A stretch of DNA of 56,874 bases from Parcubacteria group bacterium (GTDB taxonomy: Bacteria > Patescibacteriota > Minisyncoccia > Phycocordibacterales > CALRBT01), in NCBI GenBank assembly GCA_943354475.1, contig CALRBT010000004.1, forward strand, positions 1 through 56,874, in the 5' to 3' direction. Below the pieces are notes generated by a model. That model saw nothing but the letters and a program-made list of their open reading frames with translations, did no database searches and was not told the origin of the DNA. Shown piece after piece: positions 10,657 to 51,659 of this stretch. The translations under genes were made by a program, and so were the position numbers. How positions within the stretch are numbered: position 1 is the stretch's first letter; every line of letters begins with the position of its first letter.

Positions 10657-10857
10657 ATGAAAGAACTCAAGAATAAAACAAAAGAAGCCCTCGAAACAAT
10701 GCTTATTGAGAAGCGAAAGGTTCTTCGAGATTTTAGATTCAATATGACTTCAACTCAGATTAAGGACGTCAAAATTGGTAGAAATGCCAGAAAGAGTATT
10801 GCTCAGATTTTAACGCTCCTTAATCAGAAGGGTACGACCTCTGTTTCTGCAAAATAA
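10657..10857 (+). CDS. rpmC: 50S ribosomal protein L29
   Basis: MKELKNK...LRDFRF...RKSIAQILTLL; lies between rplP and rpsQ; start could also be ATG 10636. Confidence 0.92.
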   Translation: MKELKNKTKEALETMLIEKRKVLRDFRFNMTSTQIKDVKIGRNARKSIAQILTLLNQKGTTSVSAK

Positions 10858-10862
10858 TTACT

Positions 10863-11147
10863 ATGAAAAAGCCAGTAGAGAATAAAGAAATAACTGTCGA
10901 GAAAAAGGGTAAAATCCTCTCTGGTGTTGTTGTTTCTGACAAGATGACAGATACGATTGTTGTTTCTGTTGAGCGATACGTTAAGCATCCAAAGTACCGA
11001 AAGTTCATCAACCACCGAAAGCGATACAAGGCACATGATGCTGGAAATACCGCCAAAATCGGAGAGAAGGTTATGATCAAAGAGTGCGCCCCAATTTCAA
11101 AAGATAAACACTTCAAATTAGTCCCCACTCTCTCTAAGGCTAGCTAA
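10863..11147 (+). CDS. rpsQ: 30S ribosomal protein S17
   Basis: GVVVSDKM, HPKY and PISKDK motifs. Confidence 0.96.
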   Translation: MKKPVENKEITVEKKGKILSGVVVSDKMTDTIVVSVERYVKHPKYRKFINHRKRYKAHDAGNTAKIGEKVMIKECAPISKDKHFKLVPTLSKAS

Positions 11148-11178
11148 CCGCCTAAGTCAATCACCTAAATTCTAAACC

Positions 11179-11547
11179 ATGATTCAACCACGTACCATTG
11201 TAAAAATAACTGATAACTCCGGAGGAAAAATCGGACGAGTTTTCAAGGTACTCGGTTCATCAAAGAAGCGTTATGCCCGTATCGGAGATCTTGTTGTGCT
11301 TTCAGTACAATCAGCAGAACCTCGAAAGGGAACTAAGAAGAAAGACGTACATACCGCAGTGGTGGTTCGCCAACGACAAGCTTTTCGAAGAAAGGACGGA
11401 TCATACATCCGTTTTGATGAGAACGCAGTCGTATTGGTGGATAAGGAGAAGCGAGAGCCAAAGGCTGGACGTATCTTCGGACCAATTCCACGAGAGCTTG
11501 CTGAGAAATATCAGAAAATTGTTTCACTAGCCCCTGAGGTTGTGTAG
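11179..11547 (+). CDS. rplN: 50S ribosomal protein L14
   Basis: MIQ...DNSG, RFDENA and IVSLAPEV motifs. Confidence 0.97.
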   Translation: MIQPRTIVKITDNSGGKIGRVFKVLGSSKKRYARIGDLVVLSVQSAEPRKGTKKKDVHTAVVVRQRQAFRRKDGSYIRFDENAVVLVDKEKREPKAGRIFGPIPRELAEKYQKIVSLAPEVV

Positions 11548-11562
11548 ACTTATAGAAAATTT

Positions 11563-11868
11563 ATGTATATTAAAAAAGGCGACAATGTAATAGTGCTTTC
11601 CGGTAAGGATAAAGGAAAGAAAGGAAAGGTTATCAAGGCACTCCCTGCTCGCTCTTTGGTGGTGGTTGAAGGAGTTTCTGTGCACAAGAAGCACAAGCGA
11701 GCCACTCGAAGCGATTCAAAGGGACAGATTATCGAAATAGCGATGCCAATCAATGTTTCAAATGTCGCCCTCGTTGATCCAAAGAGTGGTAAGGCGACCC
11801 GAATCGGTAAGAAATTGGTAGGAGAGAAGTTTGTCCGAATCGCCAAGAAAAGTAACCAGACCATCTAA
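11563..11868 (+). CDS. rplX: 50S ribosomal protein L24
   Basis: KOW motif IKKGDNVIVLSGKDKGKKGKV. Confidence 0.97.
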   Translation: MYIKKGDNVIVLSGKDKGKKGKVIKALPARSLVVVEGVSVHKKHKRATRSDSKGQIIEIAMPINVSNVALVDPKSGKATRIGKKLVGEKFVRIAKKSNQTI

Positions 11869-11879
11869 ATTTCAACTTT

Positions 11880-12428
11880 ATGCCAATTACTACTGTTAAA
11901 GAAAAAGAAAAGAATGCTTTCACTGCTCTAAAGAGCGTGTCAGGCTACAAGAACCCTATGCAGGCGCCTCGCCTCACTAAGGTGGTTGTTTCTGCGGGAA
12001 CTGGATCAACCAAAGACAAGAAGAAGGTTGAACTCATCGCTGACCGTCTTGCCAAGATTACTGGTCAAAAGGCCGCTCCTCGTCTTGCTAAGGTATCGAT
12101 TGCAACTTTCAAGAGCCGAAAGGGTGATGCTATTGGTTACCAGATTACTCTAAGAGGCGCACGAATGTACGATTTTCTCGACAGACTTTTCAATATTTCA
12201 ATTCCTCGAACCAAGGACTTCAGAGGTCTTTCTCGAAAGGGAATCGATGATATCGGTAACTACACTATTGGTATCAAAGAGCACACTATTTTTCCAGAGA
12301 CCGCAGACGAAGAACTCAAAGACGTTTTTGGTTTCGCCATTACTCTTGTTACCACTGCAAAGGATAAAAAATCCGCTGAAAGTTTCTTAGAGCATATCGG
12401 TGTCCCGTTTCAGAAGGAAGTGAAATAA
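11880..12428 (+). CDS. rplE: 50S ribosomal protein L5
   Basis: ITGQK, FKSRKG, VTLRG-like and DFRGLS motifs. Confidence 0.97.
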   Translation: MPITTVKEKEKNAFTALKSVSGYKNPMQAPRLTKVVVSAGTGSTKDKKKVELIADRLAKITGQKAAPRLAKVSIATFKSRKGDAIGYQITLRGARMYDFLDRLFNISIPRTKDFRGLSRKGIDDIGNYTIGIKEHTIFPETADEELKDVFGFAITLVTTAKDKKSAESFLEHIGVPFQKEVK

Positions 12429-36341: not shown

Positions 36342-36372
36342 AAAAATTGCCCGCAAAAAGCGGGCTGATTTT
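36342..36372 (-). terminator. Hairpin, probably the original tmRNA terminator displaced by island integration
   Basis: gcccgc-N5-gcgggc stem with a minus-strand T-tract, directly outside the ATGTGGA core at 36378. Confidence 0.55.
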
Positions 36373-36630
36373 TAAAAATGTGGACATATCTAGTAAAACA
36401 TTGAACCACTTTAAAACCTATATTACTCGGTTTTGGGAGTTCCATAAATCAAGCCCCGCTCTGCAAAATGCCCTTGAGGGTGTTGGTTAAAGCTTTCAGC
36501 AAGGGTCACAATCCTAGTATAGAACTAAGTATTAGTAGCGAGCAGTGCGCAGGTTTACGTTTACTCGCGCTCAACCCACCTTGCCAATCTTTGACAATAC
36601 TTGCCACAGTACGTTACTCTTCTCTTAACT

Positions 36631-36819
36631 ATGAGTGAAAATACATATCGCGTTGGAGAAGTCGCCAAAAAGCTCAACGTGAGTGTCCGTTCGGTGTTTC
36701 GGTATATTCACGATGAAAAGTTGAGAGCGACTAAAATTGGTTACTGGCGTGTTGATGAAAATGACCTCAAATCCTTTGTTATTGGAAGAACCAACGTAGG
36801 AAAGCCAATGAAAAAATGA
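36631..36819 (+). CDS. Small helix-turn-helix DNA-binding protein (excisionase/MerR-like)
   Basis: YRVGEVAKKLNVSVRSVFRYIHDEKLRATKIG-WRV pattern; ATG 36631; overlaps the hsdM start. Confidence 0.75.
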   Translation: MSENTYRVGEVAKKLNVSVRSVFRYIHDEKLRATKIGYWRVDENDLKSFVIGRTNVGKPMKK

Positions 36820-38270
36820 AAACTAAAGCTAAACCACAACCAACGAAAGATGCGCTCACCAAATCAGACATCAAGCGTGTCTGCGATATATTGCGTCGTG
36901 ATGATGGGGTCGGGGCAAAGGACTACATTGAGCAGTTTTCTTGGCTTCTTTTCTTGAAGGTCTTTGAGGGTGTAGAGGGTCAACTCAAGGAACTTGAAGA
37001 AGCGGAGGGAAGGAAGTACAAAGCCGTCATTGATACGGAATACCAATGGTCATCGTGGGCTAAAAAGGATTGGAAAGACAAAGACGAACTGGTTCACTTC
37101 ATAAATCAAAAGCTATTCCCTTATCTCAAGGCACTCAAAGGAACACGCGAGAGGGATAAAATCGGGGAGATTTTCCGTGAGCTTTCTGGCAACCGTATCC
37201 GTTCGCCCCACAACCTCCTTGATGTCATCGGCATTTTGGACAAGATAGAGAAACATCACTTTCAAGACACAAACTTACTCTCACAGGTCTACGAAGAAAT
37301 ACTACAAGCTATGGGTAGTGAGGGTGGTTGGTCGGGAGAGTTCTACACCCCACGCCCCATCATTCGTTTGATGGTCAAAATCGTTGACCCTAAACTCGGA
37401 GAAACTATCTTTGACCCGTTCGTCGGTTCAGGCGGTTTTTTGGTGGAAAGTTTCAATCAACTGTACGAAAAGTCAGCAAAAGATGTGAAAGCGTGGCGTA
37501 CACTTCAAACAAAAACATTTTTCGGACAGGAAAAGAAACCACTACCTTTTCTTATCGGTACAATGAACCTCATCTTGCACCATATTCTCGTCCCAAACAT
37601 CGTACGCTCTAATACGTTTATGGAAGACGTACACAATATGCCAGAGAGTGCCAAAATGGACGTGATTTTGACCAACCCACCTTTTGGAGCAGAAGAAAGT
37701 AAAGACGTTCAGAACAACTACCCTATACAAATAGGAGCTACTGAAGGTCTTGCACTTCAGTACATTATGAAGCGTCTCAAAAATGGTGGGCGCTGTGCCG
37801 TTATTCTTCCAGAAGGAAACGTACTTTTTGGTGGTGGAGCTATGGCTCGTATCCGACAGGAACTTTTGGAAAAGTTCAATGTGCATACAATCATTTCACT
37901 TCCACAAGGAGCATTCGCACAAATGGGTGCTGGTGTAAAAACAAATCTCATCTTTTTTGATAAGACGGGCTCAACAAAAGAAATCTGGTACGGTGAAGTA
38001 AGGGGAAAGTTTACAAAAAAGAAAACAATGCAGGACGGTAGCTTTGACGCGATTTTTGATAAGTGGAAGAAACGAGAGGTATCTGATAGTTCTTGGGTAG
38101 TTCCCGTGGAAACTATCAAACAACGTGGCTACGATATTTCTCCCAAAAATCCCACACTGGCTGATGCTGACGTGCTTCTTTCGCCAGACGCAATACTAGG
38201 AGAAATAGAGAAAAATCAACACGAGATTGATAACGTACTTCTATCATTGAAAGAGATACTCAAAAAATGA
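36816..38270 (+). CDS. hsdM: Type I restriction-modification methyltransferase subunit M
   Basis: GEFYTPR, FDPFVGSGGFL (motif I) and NPPF (motif IV, m6A). Confidence 0.93.
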   Translation: MKTKAKPQPTKDALTKSDIKRVCDILRRDDGVGAKDYIEQFSWLLFLKVFEGVEGQLKELEEAEGRKYKAVIDTEYQWSSWAKKDWKDKDELVHFINQKLFPYLKALKGTRERDKIGEIFRELSGNRIRSPHNLLDVIGILDKIEKHHFQDTNLLSQVYEEILQAMGSEGGWSGEFYTPRPIIRLMVKIVDPKLGETIFDPFVGSGGFLVESFNQLYEKSAKDVKAWRTLQTKTFFGQEKKPLPFLIGTMNLILHHILVPNIVRSNTFMEDVHNMPESAKMDVILTNPPFGAEESKDVQNNYPIQIGATEGLALQYIMKRLKNGGRCAVILPEGNVLFGGGAMARIRQELLEKFNVHTIISLPQGAFAQMGAGVKTNLIFFDKTGSTKEIWYGEVRGKFTKKKTMQDGSFDAIFDKWKKREVSDSSWVVPVETIKQRGYDISPKNPTLADADVLLSPDAILGEIEKNQHEIDNVLLSLKEILKK

Positions 38271-39487
38271 TTATGGAATTGAAAAAACTACAACTAGGCG
38301 AAATCTGCAACATCTCTGGTGGTTTTGGCTTCCCTCATTCACATCAAGGACGCAAAAATGAGAAATACCCATTTTACAAAGTAGGTGATATGAACACAGG
38401 CGGAAATGAAACGTATATGATTACGCACAATCATTCTGTTTCCGAAGGTGATATCAAAGCACTCAAGGCAAAAATCTTTCCTGCTGGTACAATCATTTTT
38501 CCAAAGATTGGAGCGGCTATTGCAACAAATAAGAAACGTATTTTGAGCACCCCATCAACAGTTGATAATAACGTAATGGTTCTCATTCCCAACGAGGAAA
38601 TGGTAACCACTAAATACCTTTTTTATTTCCTTCAGGACTTTGACCTAAAGGATTGGTCAAATAAATCCGCGTTACCATCAATCAGAAAAAGTGATGTTGA
38701 GAAAACAGAAATACGGTTACCGTTTACAGATGGAAAACCAGACCTTGCCGAGCAAAAACGTATTACTGACAAGTTGGATAAGGTTTTTATGGAGATTGAA
38801 AAGAGTATTGATAAAATCAGACAGAACAGAAAGTATGCAGGTAAAACTACCTATTCAGAGCTTCTGACTACTTTTAGCGATGAAAACTTGAAAACATACT
38901 CCCTTGAAGAAGTTTGCGATACAACAAGTGGAGGCACTCCATCTCGTTCTAACAGTGCTTATTATGACGGCGACATTTCGTGGTTGAAATCTGGTGAACT
39001 GAACGACAATCGCTCAATATCATCTTCAGAGGAGCATATTTCGGAGGACGCAATAAAAAAATCTAATGCAAAAGTATTCCCATCGGGTACGGTTCTTTTG
39101 GCTATGTACGGTGCGACTGTCGGCAAGTTAGGTATTTTGAGTGCAAGTGCTTCTACCAATCAAGCTGTTTGTGCAATAACTCCCCACAAAAACATTTTGA
39201 ATGAGTATATGTTTTGGTACTTATTTTTCTATCGTGATGAGTTAGTCAAAAAAGCGTTTGGTGGTGCACAGCCAAACATCAGTCAAACGCTCATTCGCAA
39301 ACTTCCAGTAAAAATACCCCTAAAAGATAAACAGCCAGACCTAGCCAAACAAAAAGAGATTGTTGCAAAAGTAAGTTCTATTCAAGAGAAGCAGGAAATG
39401 CTAACGGACTTGTTTTCCCGACAAGAAAAGTTATTTACATCACTTCGCTCGTCAGTATTGAGCCAATCGTTCCAAATGCAAACATAA
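38267..39487 (+). CDS. hsdS: Type I restriction-modification specificity subunit S
   Basis: Two TRD-like halves, each followed by a helical P...Q..I spacer (LAEQKRI, LAKQKEI). Confidence 0.9.
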   Translation: MIMELKKLQLGEICNISGGFGFPHSHQGRKNEKYPFYKVGDMNTGGNETYMITHNHSVSEGDIKALKAKIFPAGTIIFPKIGAAIATNKKRILSTPSTVDNNVMVLIPNEEMVTTKYLFYFLQDFDLKDWSNKSALPSIRKSDVEKTEIRLPFTDGKPDLAEQKRITDKLDKVFMEIEKSIDKIRQNRKYAGKTTYSELLTTFSDENLKTYSLEEVCDTTSGGTPSRSNSAYYDGDISWLKSGELNDNRSISSSEEHISEDAIKKSNAKVFPSGTVLLAMYGATVGKLGILSASASTNQAVCAITPHKNILNEYMFWYLFFYRDELVKKAFGGAQPNISQTLIRKLPVKIPLKDKQPDLAKQKEIVAKVSSIQEKQEMLTDLFSRQEKLFTSLRSSVLSQSFQMQT

Positions 39488-39492
39488 AATAT

Positions 39493-41949
39493 ATGCCATA
39501 TTCAGAAGACGATACAAGGGTCAAAATCATAGACCCACAAATACACGAGAGCGGTTGGAAAGAGGAACAAATCCTCCGACAATATGCTATTGCCGATGAC
39601 CGCTTCTTTGTAGAGGGCGAGGACTTCAAGCGTCTTCCTACTGCAAAGTTTGCTGATTATGTTTTGCTGTACAACAACGTTTCTATTGCCGTACTTGAAG
39701 CAAAGGCAGAAGACGAAGACCCTCTCAAACATTTGAGCCAAGCACAGGACTACGCAAAGCGTCTTGATGTGCCTTTTGCCTATATCTCAAACGGCAAAAC
39801 AACTTATCTTTACGACCGCCGAACATTGAAGACGGAAGAAGTATCAAGCTACCTTTCACCTGAAGAAATGTACGAGGCGTACAAAGAGTGGAAAGGATTG
39901 AGCGAGCAGAAACTAGACGCTCTCACATATCCGCTTTATGTTGCAGGTACAAAGCGTCCGCGTGCGTATCAAGAAACAGCAATAAAAAATACTGTTGAGA
40001 ACGTCGTCAAAGGAAAGAAGACCACCCTCCTTACGATGGCGACTGGTACAGGTAAAACATTCACGGCATTTCAGATTGTTTGGAAACTTGTGAAGTCAAA
40101 GCATATACATCGCGTGCTTTTCCTCTGCGACCGCATCATTCTCCGCGATGACGCATACAGCAGAGATTTTGAACCATTTGGTGAGGCGCGTTGCAAAATT
40201 GAGGGCGGTGAGTTCAATGCCAACCGCGATATCTACTTTGCAACATATCAAACCCTTTTCACTAATGACTTATACAAACAAATACCAGCCGATTTCTTTG
40301 ACCTGATTATTATTGATGAGTGTCATCGTTCTCGCTATGGCGACTGGGGTGAGGTATTGGAACATTTCCAATCTGCACAGCAACTCGGAATGACCGCTAC
40401 GCCAAAGCGTGAGGACAACATTGATGTATACGAATACTTTGGCGAGCCAGTATTTGAGTATTCTCTCGGACAAGCGATTGAAGACGGCTATCTCGTGCCG
40501 TACAAAATCTTCAAAATATCAACCAACCTCTATAAAGAAGGGCTAGACATCTCTTCGGCTGAAGAAGTTATTTACGATGACGAGATAGAGCCAGAAAAAA
40601 TAAAGGATTTCTATGAGCCATCAGAGTATGAGCGAGCCGTTACTATCCCTGAACAAATAGACCTACTGTCAAAGAAAGTGATTGAGGTGCTAGATAAAAC
40701 GAACCAATACGGCAAAACGATTATCTTCTGCGTGGATATGGCACACGCACAAGCAGTCAAAGACAAACTCAACGAGTTGAAAGGAAACGAGGATTATGCC
40801 TCACGTGTCGTAGCCGAAGACAAAGACGACCTTACAAAGTTCCGAGACAAAGAACGTGTGATGCCTGTTGTTGCTACAACCGTAGACCTTCTCTCAACTG
40901 GCGTAGATATTCCACACATTGAAAATATCGTCTTTATGCGCCCCATCGCCTCACGAGTATTGTTCAAGCAAATTATCGGGCGTGGCTCTCGTCTCTTTGA
41001 GGGTAAGGGCTTCTTTAGGATTGTTGACTTCACCAATGCAACACGCCTTATTGATGAATGGGATATTCCTACTGAAAAACCAGAACCGCCAGAGCCACCC
41101 GAAGAACCAATCGCACCGTACGACAAACTTGTTATGGGTATTGTGGTGGACAACAAAATGGAAGCCCCTGTCGTAAGTGCAATCGTAAAAGCGAAACTGG
41201 GACGCTGGGAAAAAATGGGCAAAACCGATGAAAACGGAATGTTCAAGCTCTTTGGCTTGCCATCAAACGACAAGGTAAGTATCAGCATTGAACACGCGGA
41301 GTATAAGAAGTTGAACAAGAAACTTGCGCCACATAAAACTGAAGACGAGACCCCGTACGAGTTTCGCTTGAAAGCGTGGAAGTCCGCACCGAAGAAAATC
41401 ACCGTCAAAGGTATTGTCGTTACGATTGATGAGGAAGTGGAGGTTGAGTTTGACGGTATGAAGCTATCGTATGCAGAGTACCGAAAATACTCAAAAGATA
41501 AGATTGCCGAAACAATCCATTCTTCGGATGAGCTTCGCGCTATCTGGCTAGACCCAGAAAAAAGAGAGAAGTTTATCGCTGACCTTGAAGCGATGAAAGT
41601 AAACATCACACTCATCAAGTCCATTGAGAACCTTGAAGACGTGGACGCTTTTGACATCGTGGCTCACATTGCTTTTGACGCTCCGCTACTAACTCGTGAA
41701 GACCGCGTAAAGCACTTTATGAGGCACAACGCGAAGAACATAGACCAGTACGGCAAGGAGATTGGCGAGGCAATCCGCGAGATTATGGAGAAGTACAAGA
41801 ACAGTGGCGAGGAAAATCTCTCCGCGCAGGCGTTTCTACTTCCGAATATGAATGCAAAGAAGGAGGCAATCCAGCAGAAATACCCAGAAGGTCTATATGG
41901 CTTCATGCACTCGCTTAAATCAAAGATTTACGCCGTTATGGCCTCATAA
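39493..41949 (+). CDS. hsdR: Type I restriction endonuclease subunit R (EcoEI-like) with an extra inserted domain
   Basis: ADY...VLEAK nuclease motif; MATGTGKT, IIDECHR, MTATP and QIIGRGSR helicase motifs. Confidence 0.92.
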   Translation: MPYSEDDTRVKIIDPQIHESGWKEEQILRQYAIADDRFFVEGEDFKRLPTAKFADYVLLYNNVSIAVLEAKAEDEDPLKHLSQAQDYAKRLDVPFAYISNGKTTYLYDRRTLKTEEVSSYLSPEEMYEAYKEWKGLSEQKLDALTYPLYVAGTKRPRAYQETAIKNTVENVVKGKKTTLLTMATGTGKTFTAFQIVWKLVKSKHIHRVLFLCDRIILRDDAYSRDFEPFGEARCKIEGGEFNANRDIYFATYQTLFTNDLYKQIPADFFDLIIIDECHRSRYGDWGEVLEHFQSAQQLGMTATPKREDNIDVYEYFGEPVFEYSLGQAIEDGYLVPYKIFKISTNLYKEGLDISSAEEVIYDDEIEPEKIKDFYEPSEYERAVTIPEQIDLLSKKVIEVLDKTNQYGKTIIFCVDMAHAQAVKDKLNELKGNEDYASRVVAEDKDDLTKFRDKERVMPVVATTVDLLSTGVDIPHIENIVFMRPIASRVLFKQIIGRGSRLFEGKGFFRIVDFTNATRLIDEWDIPTEKPEPPEPPEEPIAPYDKLVMGIVVDNKMEAPVVSAIVKAKLGRWEKMGKTDENGMFKLFGLPSNDKVSISIEHAEYKKLNKKLAPHKTEDETPYEFRLKAWKSAPKKITVKGIVVTIDEEVEVEFDGMKLSYAEYRKYSKDKIAETIHSSDELRAIWLDPEKREKFIADLEAMKVNITLIKSIENLEDVDAFDIVAHIAFDAPLLTREDRVKHFMRHNAKNIDQYGKEIGEAIREIMEKYKNSGEENLSAQAFLLPNMNAKKEAIQQKYPEGLYGFMHSLKSKIYAVMAS

Positions 41950-41969
41950 TAGGCCTTCCGTAGAAATAT

Positions 41970-42863
41970 TTGTCGGGAATTTTGAGCGGAAGAAGAGGTA
42001 AAAATGGGGATAACCACATTGTCCCAAAGCTTACATGCATGTATACTTTACGCATGCCTAATGCGCCCAAATTTGTACCCAATCTGTTCAGGAGCGATGC
42101 TTTCTTTATCGGGCTCTCAAAGTATGAAGAACCATTGCTCAAGCCATTTCACGATATGGTGAGAAGCCGTATCCACACCGTAGGCGATACTGCCATTACC
42201 TACCGAGTTATTAACCACTGGGCACAGAAAAATCTTCTGCCAGAGGGTTGTAAAAACTCAAATGGTACGTGGCACAAATTCACTACCGTGGAGCTTGCTT
42301 GGTTGCGTGTAGTTGTTCGCTTGAGGAAGTTGGGTCTATCGCTAGAAAAAATTGCCTCAGCAACAGAGCAGGTAATGCGTTGGGATAATAGGAGCCAATC
42401 CTACCCAATCTTTGAATACTGTCTTGCCTTGGCATTGGCAAGCTCCAATGACCCCTATGTAATTTTTCTATCAGACGGAACTGCCGATGTAGCGACTTCA
42501 AAAGATATTGAGGGTGCAAAAATTATTGCTGGGTCGCGAGACATGTCGCTGGTTTCTCTAAAATCAATCTTGTCTGAGCTGGGCTTTACTCCTGTTAATC
42601 CCGCTCCGCTCATCTCCCTTGAGCGAAATGAGGCTGTCCTTATCAGCAAGGCAAGGAGCGGTGTTAATAGTGAAATTACGGCTCACATAAAGGAGGGCAG
42701 GGTCGGTAATATTAGGAGAACAGTTTCCTACAGAGAGAACCCCTCGCTGGATGACATAAAGAAGGGCTTCAAGGAAAATGGCGGCTTTGGAGAAATCTTA
42801 CTCAAAGTGTCAGGGGGCGTAGTGCAATCTGCCGTTGTAAACCACCATGAACGCCTTTCTTAA
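41970..42863 (+). CDS. MerR-family helix-turn-helix protein
   Basis: TYRVINHWAQKNLLP...FTTVEL...LRKLGLSLEKI; true start uncertain (ATG 42039 or 42057 possible). Confidence 0.65.
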   Translation: MSGILSGRRGKNGDNHIVPKLTCMYTLRMPNAPKFVPNLFRSDAFFIGLSKYEEPLLKPFHDMVRSRIHTVGDTAITYRVINHWAQKNLLPEGCKNSNGTWHKFTTVELAWLRVVVRLRKLGLSLEKIASATEQVMRWDNRSQSYPIFEYCLALALASSNDPYVIFLSDGTADVATSKDIEGAKIIAGSRDMSLVSLKSILSELGFTPVNPAPLISLERNEAVLISKARSGVNSEITAHIKEGRVGNIRRTVSYRENPSLDDIKKGFKENGGFGEILLKVSGGVVQSAVVNHHERLS

Positions 42864-42955
42864 CCCTGCTATCAGCCTTAATGGCTGGGGCATTTATGAA
42901 TACGTCATTGCTATCAGAAAAGCATCTGGGGCACATCACACAGCTATGAAATACA

Positions 42956-43114
42956 ATGATTTCAGTTTCAGAGTACCGAAAGGTACTCAAAGACGACGAG
43001 AGCCCAGACGAGATTATACAGCGTCGTATAGCCTATTTAGAGGCCTTCTGCCGCAGTGTGGCGCGTATTGAACTACAAGCGTATGTCAAAGTCATCAAAA
43101 ATGAAACAGCATAG
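42956..43114 (+). CDS. 52-aa ORF overlapping the recombinase start (below the ORF-track cut-off)
   Basis: Translates as MISVSEYRKVLKDDESPDEIIQRRIAYLEAFCRSVARIELQAYVKVIKNETA; protein-like helical composition. Confidence 0.5.
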   Translation: MISVSEYRKVLKDDESPDEIIQRRIAYLEAFCRSVARIELQAYVKVIKNETA

Positions 43115-44741
43115 TCCGCCACAGTCACTTCAAGAGCTGAAAAGCTCGGGCGTTACGATTTACGGCCTTATTTATTGCAGAGTTTCGTCCGATAGACAGG
43201 CCACCGAGGGTCACGGCTTGGAAAGTCAGGAGCAACGTTGCCGTGAATACGCAAAACTAAACGGGTTCATCGTTGATAAAGTTTTTGCCGATAGCGCCTC
43301 AGGGGGTGGAGAATACACTTCACGAAAAAAACAGGTGGCACTACTTGAGTATGTAAAAGCGCACCCCAACAAAGTTTTCGTGGTCATAATTGACGATATT
43401 TCTCGTTTTGCGAGAGATGTGCAAGGTCACACACAGTTCAAGCTGCTTCTAAGGGAGCAGGGCGTAGAACTTACTTCTCCAAATTTTAATTTTGAAAATA
43501 GTCCCGAGGGGCAACTGATTGAAACCGTGATGGCTTCGGTAAGCCAGTATCATCGTACAGGAAATGCTCGCCAAGTTATCCAAAAACAGCTTGCTCGCAT
43601 GAACCTTGGCTGTTGGCCGTTTGCCTCAGTGCGCCCATTTAAAATGATGAAAGATGCAAACTATGGAAAAATTCTTACAGCGCAGTATCCCGACGTTGAA
43701 TATGCTAAAGAAGCCTTGGAGCGGTTCGCTAATGGCGAATTTCTTACGAAGGCTGATGCGTGCAGATTTCTCGCGGGAAAAGGCTATTGGAGGGACAACA
43801 GGCGCCCTGAAAAACATATTGATGCATTTACCTACTTGGCTAAGAGTATTCTAAACGCAGGGTGGGTAGAGTATACAAAGTGGGGTTTCAAGCCAATTGA
43901 GGGAAAGCACAAGGGCTTTATCTCTATGGAAACTTACGAAAAGGTTCAGAAGCGCCTAAAACGTGAGGGGTTAAGTAATCGTATACGTAAAGATATTCAC
44001 CCTGATTTCTTCGCTCGCGGTCTAGTTCTGTGCGATGGTTGCTCGTACCCATTCAGGGGAGCGTACTCAAGGGGTAGGACAAAACGCTATCCGTACTATG
44101 TCTGCCAAACACACGGGTGCCAATTTTATGGAAAATCAATTCGTAAAGATATTCTTGAAGGCCAATTCAAACAGCTACTTTCTGAAACCGCGTTGAAGGA
44201 AGATGTCGGCGACCTCGTTAGTATAATGTTTGACCGCGTTTGGAAAGATGAGGTTATCAATGTGAAAACTAATGAAGCCATTGTTGCTTCGCACAAATCA
44301 TCGCTTGAACATAAGCTAGAACAGCTTACAGAGGCCGTGTTTGGTGCAAAATCGCCTGCACTGAAAAAGATATATGAAAGCCAAATGGAAAGACTTGCAA
44401 AGGAGCTTGATAGCCCCGACCTTGCAAGCGTCGGGGAAATAGACTTCTCTGTACCTTATAGAACCGCTCTAGATAAAGCCAAGGGATTGCTAAAAAGCCC
44501 TTTAGAATATTGGGAAAAACTAGATGTACGTGAACAACATCGTCTTTTTTACTTCATCTTTGATGAGAAATTACCCTACACACCGAACGTTGGGTATAGA
44601 ACCGACAAAATACGAACAGCCATAAGGCTTTTTGAGAGCTTTGTGGCTGTAAGTTCTACTGATGTGGAGATGGGCGGAGTCGAACCGCCGTGCGGGAAAG
44701 TAGCTAGAATGCATCTACCGTGTGTAGCAGATTTGATTTAG
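43083..44741 (+). CDS. Large serine recombinase (integrase)
   Basis: Catalytic YCRVSS and DDISRFAR motifs; recombinase domain; zinc ribbon CDGC...YYVC...GC; coiled coil. Start is ATG 43083 or 43101. The last 24 codons are read from antisense tmRNA. Confidence 0.9.
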   Translation: MSKSSKMKQHSPPQSLQELKSSGVTIYGLIYCRVSSDRQATEGHGLESQEQRCREYAKLNGFIVDKVFADSASGGGEYTSRKKQVALLEYVKAHPNKVFVVIIDDISRFARDVQGHTQFKLLLREQGVELTSPNFNFENSPEGQLIETVMASVSQYHRTGNARQVIQKQLARMNLGCWPFASVRPFKMMKDANYGKILTAQYPDVEYAKEALERFANGEFLTKADACRFLAGKGYWRDNRRPEKHIDAFTYLAKSILNAGWVEYTKWGFKPIEGKHKGFISMETYEKVQKRLKREGLSNRIRKDIHPDFFARGLVLCDGCSYPFRGAYSRGRTKRYPYYVCQTHGCQFYGKSIRKDILEGQFKQLLSETALKEDVGDLVSIMFDRVWKDEVINVKTNEAIVASHKSSLEHKLEQLTEAVFGAKSPALKKIYESQMERLAKELDSPDLASVGEIDFSVPYRTALDKAKGLLKSPLEYWEKLDVREQHRLFYFIFDEKLPYTPNVGYRTDKIRTAIRLFESFVAVSSTDVEMGGVEPPCGKVARMHLPCVADLI

Positions 44742-45181
44742 GACTTGCGAATTTGACACATTTCGTCGTTGCTTCGCTCATTTGCTCCCGCAGAGTAGAT
44801 TCACCTACACTTTGGTCACAAGCCTCACTCGCGCCTAGAACTGTATCCAAATTCGCAAGTCCTGTTTAGAAATATTACGTAGAGAATATGCAAAACCGTA
44901 ATATGTCGATTCTCTTTATTTTGAATTACTCGCGAGAAACTGAGTAATTCTAGTTCCATTTTATTACACCCGATTCAACCTATGAAACTTCAGTTGATCG
45001 AACGCCACTTAGGCTAAAGCGTAAGTGGAAGCAAAGGTATTTCCCGTAAAGTACGGAGAAGCTACCGATTTTGCTTTTGAAAGTACGTTTGCACGTAGCT
45101 TGTTAAGCGTTTTTTAGGAAGGACGCTCACTTCCACACGGCACATAAAAGACTAATTTTCCTGTCGATGCCTGGCATCCCC
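44665..45181 (-). ncRNA. ssrA: tmRNA (about 517 nt, containing a palindromic insertion)
   Basis: 5' GGGGAUG pairs with 3' CAUCUCC-A giving G3:U70; T-arm GGCGG-UUCGACU-CCGCC; pk1 ggaag/cttcc and agcgt/acgct; tag ORF 45092-45009 = ANVLSKAKSVASPYFTGNTFASTYALA; next to smpB. Confidence 0.92.
44740..44863 (-). repeat. Palindromic repeat family, copy D (inside tmRNA)
   Basis: Perfect 16-bp arms aggacttgcgaatttg / caaattcgcaagtcct; core shared with copies B and E. Confidence 0.85.
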
Positions 45182-51561: not shown

Positions 51562-51635
51562 CCACCCTTAGCTCAGTTGGTTAGAGCACAGAGCTTATAC
51601 CTCTGCGGTCCTTGGTTCGAGTCCAAGAGGGTGGA
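51562..51635 (+). tRNA. tRNA-Ile, anticodon UAU
   Basis: Acceptor CCACCCT/AGGGTGG plus discriminator A; D-arm GCTC/GAGC; anticodon stem CAGAG/CTCTG with loop CT-TAT-AC; T-arm CTTGG-TTCGAGT-CCAAG; CCA not encoded. Confidence 0.92.
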
Positions 51636-51659
51636 CTAAAATGTTTAAGTAGCGGAAGG

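What the first reader, a model, noticed from the sequence alone, without database searches (positions are those of the whole stretch)
36378..44668. Minimal defence island in tmRNA with precisely readable ends
Seen: core repeat ATGTGGA at both ends (9 of 10 matches over atgtggaSat). Joining the inner flanks gives gtggctgtaagttctactg-ATGT-GG-ACAT-atctagtaaaacattgaaccac, an imperfect inverted repeat around a GG dinucleotide. Joining the outer flanks restores the tmRNA end followed by a terminator. Cargo is HTH-hsdM-hsdS-hsdR, a MerR-like gene, a small ORF and the recombinase, with no replication or transfer genes. Established: serine integrases cross over at a central dinucleotide within such dyads; tmRNA/tRNA islands more typically use tyrosine integrases. 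Inference: an excisable R-M cassette.
Basis: partly seen in the sequence, partly recalled or inferred. Interest (0 to 1): 0.65.

Follow-up and report, generated by a model that had tools for sequence, protein, structure and literature searches.

The report
Serine-integrase restriction island at tmRNA end
An 8.3-kb mobile cassette carrying a type I restriction-modification system sits at the last bases of the tmRNA gene of a tiny-genome (Patescibacteria-type) bacterium; it was put there by a large serine integrase whose attachment site lies inside its own gene, an arrangement that recurs at tmRNA and tRNA-Ala genes in many relatives and that I did not find described.

Summary
ATGTGGA stands at 36378-36384 and 44662-44668. 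The outer flanks rebuild a tmRNA 3' end followed by a terminator. The inner flanks give an attP-like site. The cargo is as listed: excisionase-family HTH, hsdM, hsdS, hsdR, a MerR-like gene, a small ORF and a large serine recombinase (LSR).

- About 22 genomes of the same order carry a 31-51% identical LSR. Its 3' end overlaps the 3' end of a tmRNA gene (15 of 20 loci) or a tRNA gene (3 of 20).
- Among the 80 best loci in a species-wide collection, at least 57 show this layout: 31 tmRNA, 17 tRNA-Ala, 9 other or uncalled tDNAs.
- Nine mapped island ends share only the core GTGGA, the antisense of U70-C74.
- The T-loop-like motif TNGAAC lies 16 nt from the core in attP and 11 nt in attB. This is the 5-bp shift known for LSR sites.

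New here: the integrase frame crosses the core. In the excised form it would continue into a conserved 28-37-codon tail at the far end of the island. Integration therefore swaps the enzyme's C-terminus.

The GG crossover is not established; GA fits the geometry slightly better. No read-level proof of excision was possible, but one contig of the same species ends exactly at the core.

The parts
36349..36365 (-). Original intrinsic terminator of ssrA (GCCCGCTTTTTGCGGGC + T-run), now separated from the tmRNA gene by the island; B arm of attB
   Evidence: Terminator scan. A homologous hairpin directly follows ssrA in the island-free relative G024.
36378..36384 (+). Distal copy of the core ATGTGGA (junction B arm / P' arm). 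The family-wide minimal core is GTGGA, 36380-36384.
   Evidence: Nine island ends in relatives share only GTGGA.
36380..36407 (+). P' half-site: GTGGA-N16-TTGAACC, a T-loop-like ZD-type motif 5 bp further out than in the tmRNA half-site
   Evidence: It is the only match to GTGGA-N16-TBGAACM in the window, 0.09 expected. The same N16 spacing occurs in all nine mapped P' ends, against N11 in the tDNA arms. The 5-bp rule is from PMC3783163.
36380..36490 (+). Displaced 3' end of the integrase gene: 36 codons plus stop (VDISSKTLNHFKTYITRFWEFHKSSPALQNALEGVG*), in frame with the integrase only in the excised (attP) form
   Evidence: Conserved at protein level in relatives, and the tail type follows the integrase clade. 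A contiguous integrase-plus-tail ORF exists in G222:C2 and G206:C12.
36631..36819 (+). Excisionase-family HTH protein (62 aa), candidate recombination directionality factor or regulator
   Evidence: PF12728 6e-9; TIGR01764 31.2 bits against a cut-off of 28.8; phrog_66 excisionase/regulator.
36816..38270 (+). hsdM, type I methyltransferase
   Evidence: PF02384 1e-60 and HsdM_N; PADLOC MTase_I 1.4e-138.
38267..39487 (+). hsdS, specificity subunit with two target-recognition domains
   Evidence: PF01420 1.8e-41, two stretches.
39493..41949 (+). hsdR, restriction/translocase subunit (EcoEI-type C-terminus)
   Evidence: ResIII, Helicase_C, EcoEI_R_C; PADLOC REase_I 8e-136.
41970..42863 (+). MerR_1-like HTH protein (297 aa; gene callers give 269 aa), function unknown; part of a module conserved with the island of G150
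   Evidence: PF13411 7e-8. 42% identical to the protein at the same position in L059. No PHROG, NCBIfam or PADLOC hit.
42847..43071 (+). Small ORF (74 aa; 52 aa as called), no detectable family
43056..44741 (+). Large serine recombinase (561 aa from GTG; 546 aa from ATG 43101). The last 24 codons plus the stop, 44667-44741, are read from the antisense of the tmRNA gene.
   Evidence: PF00239 and PF13408; phrog_95 integrase 5e-47. AF2 model with pLDDT 86. Full-length Foldseek matches to SPbeta, Bxb1, PhiC31 and LI integrases, E 1e-15 to 1e-10. Catalytic motif YCRVSSDRQ.
44640..44661 (+). P arm of attP, inside the integrase coding region (codes the variable segment FVAVSST)
44662..44668 (+). Proximal copy of the core ATGTGGA, the antisense of the tmRNA 3' end ...U70 C71 C72 A73 C74 A U
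   Evidence: Contig L025 of the same species ends exactly at 44662.
44662..45181 (-). ssrA (tmRNA) gene, target of the island. Its T-arm (GTGGA-N11-TCGAACC on the + strand) is the B' half-site.
   Evidence: Rfam RF00023, 86.4 bits, full length.

Best explanation
The 8,284-bp unit between the two cores is an integrative, non-self-transmissible island. It was moved into the last five bases of the tRNA-like end of ssrA by its own large serine integrase.

Shown by sequence and comparison:
- The enzyme has the full LSR architecture: catalytic domain, recombinase domain, and zinc ribbon with a coiled coil.
- It belongs to a large family whose genes end convergently inside tmRNA or tRNA-Ala genes.
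- The island ends are a 5-bp family-wide core, GTGGA. This is the antisense of U70-C71-C72-A73-C74, which tmRNA and tRNA-Ala share.
- The tDNA arm carries the T-loop motif TCGAACC 11 nt from the core. The island's P' arm carries a mimic (TTGAACC) 16 nt from it. This is the 5-bp offset that lets LSRs tell attP from attB.
- attP lies inside the integrase ORF.

Inferred:
- From the circular form, the integrase is made with its conserved, helix-forming tail of about 36 residues. It recombines attP with attB by a 2-bp staggered cut within GTGGA, most likely at GA or GG.
- Integration leaves the tmRNA sequence intact up to the processing site but removes its terminator.
- Integration also replaces the integrase tail with 24 residues read from antisense tmRNA, which are predicted to be disordered.
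- Excision (attL x attR) would restore both. It probably needs a directionality factor, for which the excisionase-family HTH gene next to P' is the candidate.
- The type I R-M system is cargo that pays for the element's upkeep. It defends the host and may also act as an addiction module.
For: - Architecture and family membership of the integrase.
- Same convergent overlap with tmRNA or tRNA:
  - 18 of 20 loci of the same order;
  - at least 57 of 80 best loci in the species-wide collection, including cultured Alphaproteobacteria at tRNA-Ala.
- Distal ends of other islands mapped to GTGGA directly after a terminator hairpin, with different cargo: an MTase+S system, an AAA_15 ATPase, and a CapP-like protease.
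- Half-site spacing of N16 in P' versus N11 in B' in every mapped element, matching Rutherford et al. 2013.
- Integrase frame:
  - It stays open for 28-37 codons across nine virtual or real attP junctions. By my estimate the chance per site is about 0.15.
  - Tail type A or B follows integrase clade A or B in 8 of 8 cases. This includes the tandem array in G222:C2, where the contiguous ORF is chimeric exactly as stepwise insertion next to ssrA predicts.
- Structure: the native-type tail is predicted helical (pLDDT about 76-79), while the tDNA-coded tail is disordered (pLDDT below 50).
- Polymorphism hint: contig L025 from another assembly has 1 mismatch in 5,516 nt and ends exactly at base 44662. 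That is the last base shared by the occupied and the empty site. No identical hsdR or integrase is recorded from that assembly.
- The reconstructed attB resembles island-free relatives.
Against: - No direct evidence of excision or of an empty site. Exact-match scans of JGI metagenomes for attB and for the P' junction found nothing.
- All four long contigs that carry the integrase have it integrated at the same place.
- GC content does not set the island apart.
- The left (B and P) arms show no clear mirror of the T-loop motif. The attP dyad is weak (14/25), so the exact crossover dinucleotide is undetermined.
- The excisionase-like gene is not conserved in the other islands examined, so its role as RDF is a guess.
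- The Pfam 'Recombinase' domain (PF07508) is not detected by sequence. That domain is supported only by the predicted fold.
Confidence: 0.85

Rival explanations
1. The island is a fixed relic. It integrated once via the serine integrase but no longer excises, and the recombinase and sites are decaying or have been domesticated.
For: All long contigs with the exact integrase or hsdR show the same integrated context. GC content has equilibrated with the host. No attB or attP junction was found in the metagenome scans.
Against: - The integrase ORF is intact, with all catalytic and zinc-binding residues.
- The 36-codon displaced tail is still open and conserved, although it cannot be translated in the integrated state.
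- Both half-site motifs are intact.
- A same-species contig breaks exactly at the core.
Confidence: 0.12
2. The short repeat is coincidental. The block arrived by another route, such as homologous recombination of flanks or a tyrosine integrase acting in trans, and the serine recombinase is an invertase or resolvase unrelated to the boundaries.
For: A 7-bp repeat alone is weak evidence: 3 of 100 shuffles give two ATGTGGASAT matches. The PF07508 domain is not detected by sequence.
Against: - The same gene-to-tDNA overlap recurs in dozens of genomes.
- The distal ends recur at the same core with the same N16 motif.
- The integrase frame continues across the junction into a cognate conserved tail.
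- No tyrosine recombinase lies in the island.
- The fold matches full-length serine integrases.
Confidence: 0.02
3. One reading: strand exchange occurs at the GG dinucleotide at the centre of ATGT-GG-ACAT.
For: GG lies within the 5-bp core shared by all mapped junctions. The local palindrome ATGT/ACAT flanks it in this attP.
Against: - The ATGT/ACAT symmetry is specific to this element. Other members have GGTGGAC or AGTGGAC.
- The best overall dyad is centred on the A, 14/25 against 10/25 for GG.
- With GA as the centre, the 9-bp ZD-type motifs fall at positions 16-24 (attP) and 11-19 (attB), as in the LI integrase sites. With GG they fall one position further out.
Confidence: 0.35

Closest known systems
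Dehalococcoides ssrA-specific genomic islands with the DsiB/DsiA integration module (McMurdie et al. 2011, PMC3146451)
   Same: [quoted passage not shown]
- A roughly 540-aa serine recombinase gene lies next to ssrA in convergent orientation.
- Cargo is variable and tandem arrays occur.
- The recombinase is likened to CcrB; the integrase here gives a weak NCBIfam CcrB hit.
   Different: - There, a 20-bp direct repeat marks insertion in the T-loop, with a second small serine recombinase (DsiA) and a six-gene module.
- Here, the core is 5-7 bp at the acceptor/discriminator end (U70-C74), there is a single recombinase, and attP lies inside the recombinase ORF.
- Homology of this integrase to DsiB was not tested, because no DsiB sequence was at hand.
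Phage and ICE large serine integrases (LI/A118, Bxb1, PhiC31, SPbeta SprA, TP901-1, CcrAB)
   Same: Domain architecture and predicted fold, the catalytic motif, short att sites, and a ZD motif 5 bp further out in attP than in attB.
   Different: - Those characterised enzymes, as far as I know, target protein-coding or intergenic sites and keep attP outside the integrase coding sequence.
- This family targets tDNA ends. Its own 3' end spans attP, so integration changes the protein.
- Sequence identity to phage integrases is only about 21-25%.
tRNA/tmRNA islands of tyrosine integrases (Islander/TIGER class; Williams 2002; Hudson et al. 2015, PMC4383910)
   Same: The target is the 3' part of a tDNA, the gene is restored after insertion, the integrase gene sits at the tDNA-proximal end, tandem arrays occur, and the cargo is defence or fitness genes.
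   Different: The enzyme family and chemistry differ. The direct repeat here is only 5-10 bp, against tens of bp there. The 2015 paper states that serine recombinases were not known to target tDNAs.
SSV1-type archaeal integrases whose gene is split by integration (own knowledge; reviewed in PMC8371274, not read here)
   Same: attP lies within the integrase gene, so the integrated and free forms encode different proteins.
   Different: Those are tyrosine recombinases split near the N-terminus, which leaves no intact gene. Here only the last ~36 codons are exchanged and the catalytic and DNA-binding domains stay intact.
Integration-dependent immunity of mycobacteriophages
   Same: An attP inside a coding sequence makes integration change a protein's C-terminus, and this is used as a switch.
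   Different: There the gene is the repressor and the integrase is a tyrosine recombinase. Here the affected protein is the serine integrase itself, and a switch function has not been shown.

Membership tests
Large serine recombinase / serine integrase | N-terminal resolvase-type catalytic domain with the nucleophilic Ser and conserved Arg residues | tested here: met
   PF00239 1.8e-20. The motif is Y25-x-R27-V-S29-S30-x-R-Q33, and D98, R102 and R105 are invariant in 77 sequences. PDB sequence hits to TP901-1 and gamma-delta catalytic domains.
Large serine recombinase / serine integrase | Recombinase domain (RD, PF07508) after helix E | tested here: inconclusive
   No PF07508 hit at E<=0.01. 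However, residues ~180-291 of the AF2 model align within full-length Foldseek matches to SPbeta, Bxb1, PhiC31 and LI integrases, with 548-563 aligned columns and E 1e-15.
Large serine recombinase / serine integrase | Zinc-ribbon domain with an inserted coiled coil | tested here: met
   PF13408 6.9e-7. Four nearly invariant Cys: C311, C314, C335, C340. Long helical hairpin at 367-436 in the model.
Large serine recombinase / serine integrase | attP and attB half-sites share a ZD motif that lies 5 bp closer to the centre in attB | tested here: met
   GTGGA-N16-T[TCG]GAAC in nine P' arms versus GTGGA-N11-T[CT]GAAC in the tDNA arms. The rule is taken from PMC3783163. Seen on the P'/B' side only; the opposite arms are not clearly symmetric.
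Large serine recombinase / serine integrase | Catalyses unidirectional attP x attB recombination with a 2-bp stagger; excision needs an RDF | not testable with these tools
   Needs biochemistry or read evidence.
Dehalococcoides ssrA-GI (DsiB/DsiA) islands | Island bounded by ssrA and a 20-bp direct repeat of its 3' end, with insertion in the T-loop | tested here: not met
   The repeat here is 7 bp (5 bp family-wide), at U70-C74 beyond the T-arm. Description.
Dehalococcoides ssrA-GI (DsiB/DsiA) islands | Two serine recombinases (large DsiB plus small DsiA) in a six-gene integration module | tested here: not met
   Only one recombinase in the island. The second weak homologue in the genome is on another contig.
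Type I restriction-modification system | HsdM, HsdS (two TRDs) and HsdR (nuclease plus SF2 translocase) encoded together | tested here: met
   Pfam and PADLOC hits, all full length. Activity and recognition motif not testable here.
Tyrosine-integrase tDNA island (Islander type) | A tyrosine recombinase encoded in the island, and a long tDNA fragment as direct repeat | tested here: not met
   No phage-integrase-type domain in any island ORF. The repeat is 7 bp.

The most novel reading that the evidence does not exclude
Placing attP inside the integrase gene may act as a built-in sensor of integration state that sets directionality or dosage.
- The free circle would make a full-length enzyme whose conserved helical tail is needed for, or favours, attP x attB recombination.
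- The integrated copy would make an enzyme with a disordered tail coded by antisense tmRNA. That enzyme would be inactive, unstable, or competent only for RDF-assisted excision.
- Read-through from the now terminator-less tmRNA gene would add antisense repression of the integrase.

This would be a serine-integrase counterpart of archaeal split integrases and of integration-dependent immunity. It would also explain how a whole LSR family came to specialise on the alanine-type acceptor end shared by tmRNA and tRNA-Ala.
Probability: 0.3. Interest if true: 0.85.

Novelty: new variant of a known kind. Interest (0 to 1): 0.66.

Why it matters
- tDNA targeting: a 2015 database paper by the developers of the Islander/TIGER island finders states that serine recombinases are not known to target tRNA or tmRNA genes (PMC4383910). 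This island belongs to a large family that does so systematically, in Patescibacteria and also in cultured Alphaproteobacteria. It recognises the universal T-loop plus the alanine-type acceptor end.
- Possible detection gap: the family gives no hit to the Pfam 'Recombinase' domain. A recent integrase-mining pipeline requires that domain for serine integrases (PMC12884075), so it may discard this family.
- Practical uses: the sites are short and can be predicted from a tDNA sequence. That makes these enzymes candidates for integration tools in organisms where no attB is known. They also offer a way to study gene flow of defence systems among ultra-small, uncultured bacteria.
- Mechanism: the tail swap gives a simple, testable hypothesis about how directionality can be encoded in the layout of the element itself.

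Tried and rejected
2. Exact-match scans of JGI metagenome contigs for the reconstructed attB and for the core+P' arm: 0 hits each. The species is probably absent from that collection, so this says nothing about excision.
3. Free (non-integrated) forms:
   - IMG/VR gave only two moderately related loci, and both are integrated at tDNA-like ends.
   - Cultured phages and plasmids hold only relatives at about 21-26% identity.
4. Finding distal ends by dyad symmetry with the P arm alone failed for most relatives. A motif search (GTGGA-N16-TNGAAC after a terminator) worked.
5. GC content and skew do not mark the island.
6. A 'mirror-image spare attP' upstream of the integrase gene was reported in earlier notes for other genomes. 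I looked for it with inverted-repeat, blastn-short and tblastn searches. Only chance-level 10-11-mers were found, so this island lacks it.
7. Exact look-up of the left-flank protein gave a Logan contig that stops about 120 bp short of the att site, which is uninformative.
8. Mirror ZD motif in the B and P arms: none convincing. GGCTGA in both arms is probably terminator or coding sequence.
9. Homology to Dehalococcoides DsiB could not be tested, because no sequence was available through the tools.
10. Literature searches found no description of this family in Patescibacteria. The library does not hold most subscription-journal papers.

Full report
**What is there**

The window is contig 4 of a 786-kb genome that is 98% complete. 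All its relatives in the collection are placed only in the same order. Titles of related records name Patescibacteria lineages such as Paceibacteria, Nomurabacteria and Kaiserbacteria.

- Rfam finds a full-length tmRNA gene on the minus strand at 45181..44662, at 86.4 bits. smpB lies directly upstream of it.
- ARAGORN misses this tmRNA. The gene carries a ~125-nt palindromic insertion that is multi-copy in the genome.
- The tmRNA ends ...GGTTCGACTCCGCCCATCTCCACAT. That is T-arm, acceptor strand CAUCUCC, discriminator A, then CAU, so CCA is not fully encoded.

**The observation**

- ATGTGGA stands at 36378-36384 and 44662-44668. ATGTGGASAT occurs only at these two places in the window, with 0.25 expected and 3 of 100 shuffles reaching two.
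- The right copy is the last seven bases of ssrA.
- The left copy follows a 6-bp GC hairpin with T-runs on both strands, at 36349-36365.
- Joining the outer flanks gives a tmRNA end, 12 nt and a terminator. Five island-free relatives of the same order have the same layout. The nearest one (G024, smpB 73% identical) has the hairpin GCCCGCTTTTTGGCGGG, against GCCCGCTTTTTGCGGGC here.
- All genes between the repeats are on the + strand:
  - an excisionase-family HTH (TIGR01764 above its cut-off, phrog_66);
  - hsdM, hsdS with two TRDs, and hsdR;
  - a MerR_1-like protein of 297 aa;
  - a 74-aa ORF without hits;
  - a recombinase of 546/561 aa with Resolvase and Zn_ribbon_recom domains.
- Nothing resembling a replication or transfer gene was detected.

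**The recombinase is a large serine integrase**

- Its catalytic motif YCRVSSDRQ, the D-R-x-x-R block and four zinc-binding cysteines are invariant or nearly so in 77 family members.
- Sequence searches reach solved structures only for the catalytic domain, and Pfam PF07508 is not detected.
- The AlphaFold2 model has mean pLDDT 86. It shows a catalytic domain, helix E, a mixed alpha/beta domain, a zinc ribbon and a long helical hairpin at 367-436.
- Foldseek aligns the model over its full length to the SPbeta, Bxb1, PhiC31 and LI integrases, with E 1e-15 to 1e-10.

**Comparative evidence that the enzyme and the tDNA end belong together**

- Same order: in 401 genomes, 55 have a homologue, and a distinct subfamily (E <= 1e-78, 31-51% identity) appears in about 22. 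In 20 loci of that subfamily, 15 have a tmRNA gene and 3 a tRNA gene whose 3' end abuts or overlaps the 3' end of the recombinase gene, convergently as in the window.
- Species-wide scan: this found 519 relatives. The best 80 are mostly Patescibacteria but include cultured Alphaproteobacteria (Jannaschia aquimarina, Roseovarius marisflavi, Nitratireductor alexandrii). At least 57 of the 80 have a tDNA at the recombinase stop: 31 tmRNA, 17 tRNA-Ala and 9 others. Almost all of these ORFs end in peptides such as VEMGGIEPPC or VDPTGLEPAT, which are antisense T-arm sequence read as protein.
- Shared target sequence: tmRNA and tRNA-Ala share the alanine acceptor end U70-C71-C72-A73-C74. Its antisense is GTGGA.

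**Island ends in relatives**

I fetched 20-kb stretches and found the distal ends of other islands. A motif search located seven: L059, L063, L066, L067, L068, L073 and L075. The inner junction of the L067 tandem array is an eighth.

- Each distal end is GTGGA immediately after a terminator hairpin, followed by 16 nt and T[TCG]GAAC[CA]. The inner junction of the tandem array follows the neighbouring integrase gene instead of a terminator.
- Island sizes are 3.3-7.6 kb, apart from the 10.7-kb tandem array in L067.
- Cargo differs between islands: a fused methyltransferase with an S subunit and DUF5655; an AAA_15/AriA/PtuA-like ATPase; a CapP-like protease; and unknowns.
- Comparing the two ends of each island, the only block always shared is GTGGA. 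Strand exchange must therefore occur inside these five bases.

**Half-site geometry**

- In the tDNA arm the T-loop sequence T[CT]GAACC begins 11 nt after GTGGA.
- In every P' arm its look-alike begins 16 nt after GTGGA. In the window this pattern matches only once, with 0.09 expected.
- Rutherford et al. 2013 showed for the LI integrase that the ZD motif occupies positions 16-24 in attP and 11-19 in attB, a 5-bp shift.
- With GA as the central dinucleotide, the motifs here (taken as 9 bp) fall on exactly those positions. With GG they fall one position further out.
- The best dyad of the reconstructed attP is centred on the A, 14/25 against 10/25 for GG.

**attP lies inside the integrase gene**

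- The integrase frame crosses the core (...SSTD-V-E...). In the integrated state it runs on for 24 codons of antisense tmRNA to a stop at 44739-44741.
- If the inner flanks are joined, the same frame continues from 36383 for 34 more codons. The tail from the core is VDISSKTLNHFKTYITRFWEFHKSSPALQNALEGVG*, ending at 36490.
- The same holds for all nine P' ends examined: the frame stays open for 28-37 codons and then stops.
- The tails fall into two types:
  - type A: ...N-x-x-K-x-Y-[IL]-x-x-F-W-x-[FY]...L-Q-x-A-L;
  - type B: ...W-N-x-[LI]-x-x-[YW]-[IV]...
- A tree of the integrase bodies without tails splits into two clades with 100/100 support. Tail type follows clade in 8 of 8 cases.
- The informative case is the tandem array in G222:C2:
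  - The tmRNA-proximal integrase is clade A. The type A tail sits at the inner junction, where it is contiguous with the clade B integrase of the distal island.
  - The type B tail sits at the far end.
  - This is what stepwise insertion next to ssrA predicts.
  - It also provides a real, uninterrupted integrase-plus-tail ORF containing GTGGA-N16-TTCAACC.
- A second contiguous example is G206:C12.
- In models, the native-type tail is a ~27-residue helix (pLDDT about 76-79). The tDNA-coded tail is disordered (pLDDT below 50).
- The TNGAAC motif is dual-coded as [L/S/W]-N. The varying middle base of a codon whose products are chemically unrelated points to a constraint on the DNA there. Conservation further out in the tail points to a constraint on the protein.
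- A tail that can be translated only from the excised form, yet is conserved, is indirect evidence that these elements do excise.

**Evidence on present-day mobility**

- Direct tests were not possible.
- Exact-protein look-ups show four long contigs with the island in place.
- One 5.5-kb contig from another assembly (GCA_943354935.1) has 1 mismatch in 5,516 nt and ends exactly at window base 44662. That is the last base common to an occupied and an empty site, which is what an assembly-graph fork at the att site would produce.
- No identical hsdR or integrase is on record from that assembly.
- This is suggestive of a polymorphism, not proof.

**Mechanism proposed**

- Shown: the architecture, the family-wide tDNA targeting, the core, the half-site offset, and the ORF spanning attP.
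- Inferred:
  - The circular form expresses the full-length integrase, which recombines attP with the tmRNA end.
  - The tmRNA sequence is preserved up to its processing site but loses its terminator. No strong terminator follows within ~370 nt, so tmRNA read-through may be antisense to the integrase gene.
  - The integrase tail is exchanged on integration.
  - Excision needs a directionality factor, possibly the excisionase-family protein. In the circle, that gene lies directly downstream of the integrase.
  - The type I R-M system is cargo.

**Comparison with what is known**

- Hudson et al. 2015 wrote that serine recombinases were not known to target tDNAs.
- McMurdie et al. 2011 had nevertheless described Dehalococcoides ssrA islands with a CcrB-like serine recombinase next to ssrA. 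Those have a 20-bp repeat in the T-loop and a second small recombinase.
- The present family differs from that case in crossover position, repeat length, having a single recombinase, and the attP-in-ORF layout.
- I found no paper describing it, but the library is incomplete.
- Earlier notes of this scan report the same layout in many other genomes. I treat those as leads. The claims used here were re-derived from this window and its relatives.

**Verdict**

This is a new variant of a known kind: an LSR-mobilised ssrA island, with tDNA-end specificity and an integrase that swaps its own tail.

Noticed in passing
window 44742-44866: A ~125-nt element with 15-bp terminal inverted repeats (ggacttgcgaatttg...caaattcgcaagtcc) is inserted inside the tmRNA gene, seen as a 125-nt insertion in the Rfam alignment. 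About nine further copies lie elsewhere in the same genome, and related copies occur in G027 and G028. It explains why ARAGORN misses this tmRNA.
   Followed up: partly
window 51562-51636: A tRNA-Ile with a genomically encoded UAU anticodon (ARAGORN, and Rfam at 68 bits), which is rare in bacteria.
   Followed up: no
L067 (G222:C2:26600-46599, reverse-oriented), island coordinates 0-10669: Tandem array of two serine-integrase islands at ssrA. The inner junction is a contiguous chimeric ORF: a clade-B integrase body with a clade-A tail.
   Followed up: yes
L183/L074 (G206:C12), integrase at contig 10665-12230: The closest homologue (50% identity) has a contiguous native-type tail and an intact GTGGA-N16-TGGAACC site. 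It lies next to IF3/L20 genes, as the island does in the window. It is followed by >10 kb of + strand genes and the contig end, with no tmRNA on the contig. It is probably the distal member of a tandem array, but this is unresolved.
   Followed up: partly
window 36458-36478 and the homologous tail positions in L059, L068 and L067: Within type-A tails, the stretch CTGCAAAA[TA]GCCCTT is identical at the nucleotide level in four elements whose integrases are only 42-56% identical. This suggests an additional DNA- or RNA-level signal, such as a promoter or operator for the downstream genes, on top of coding.
   Followed up: no
window 44649-44659, 43464-43474, 39371-39380: The P-arm 11-mer GTAAGTTCTAC has an inverted copy inside the integrase gene and a 10-nt direct copy at the end of hsdS. 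By my estimate about 0.1-0.2 such matches are expected by chance. No function is evident.
   Followed up: partly
window 39493-41949 (HsdR residues 548-617): Weak Pfam matches to CarboxypepD_reg-like beta domains inside HsdR, between the helicase and the EcoEI_R_C regions (E about 0.003, below cut-off).
   Followed up: no
L039 3365-3612; L045 505-624; L032 4136-4257: A group I intron (75.9 bits) lies next to the tRNA targeted by the island in G196. LOOT RNA motifs (94 and 85 bits) lie near two other islands.
   Followed up: no
L015 (G025:C87), ~40 nt downstream of the ssrA terminator: An antisense tDNA-like end, TGTGGAGATGAGC...GGGGGAATCGAA, follows the tmRNA terminator in an island-free relative. 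It may be a convergent tDNA or an att remnant.
   Followed up: no
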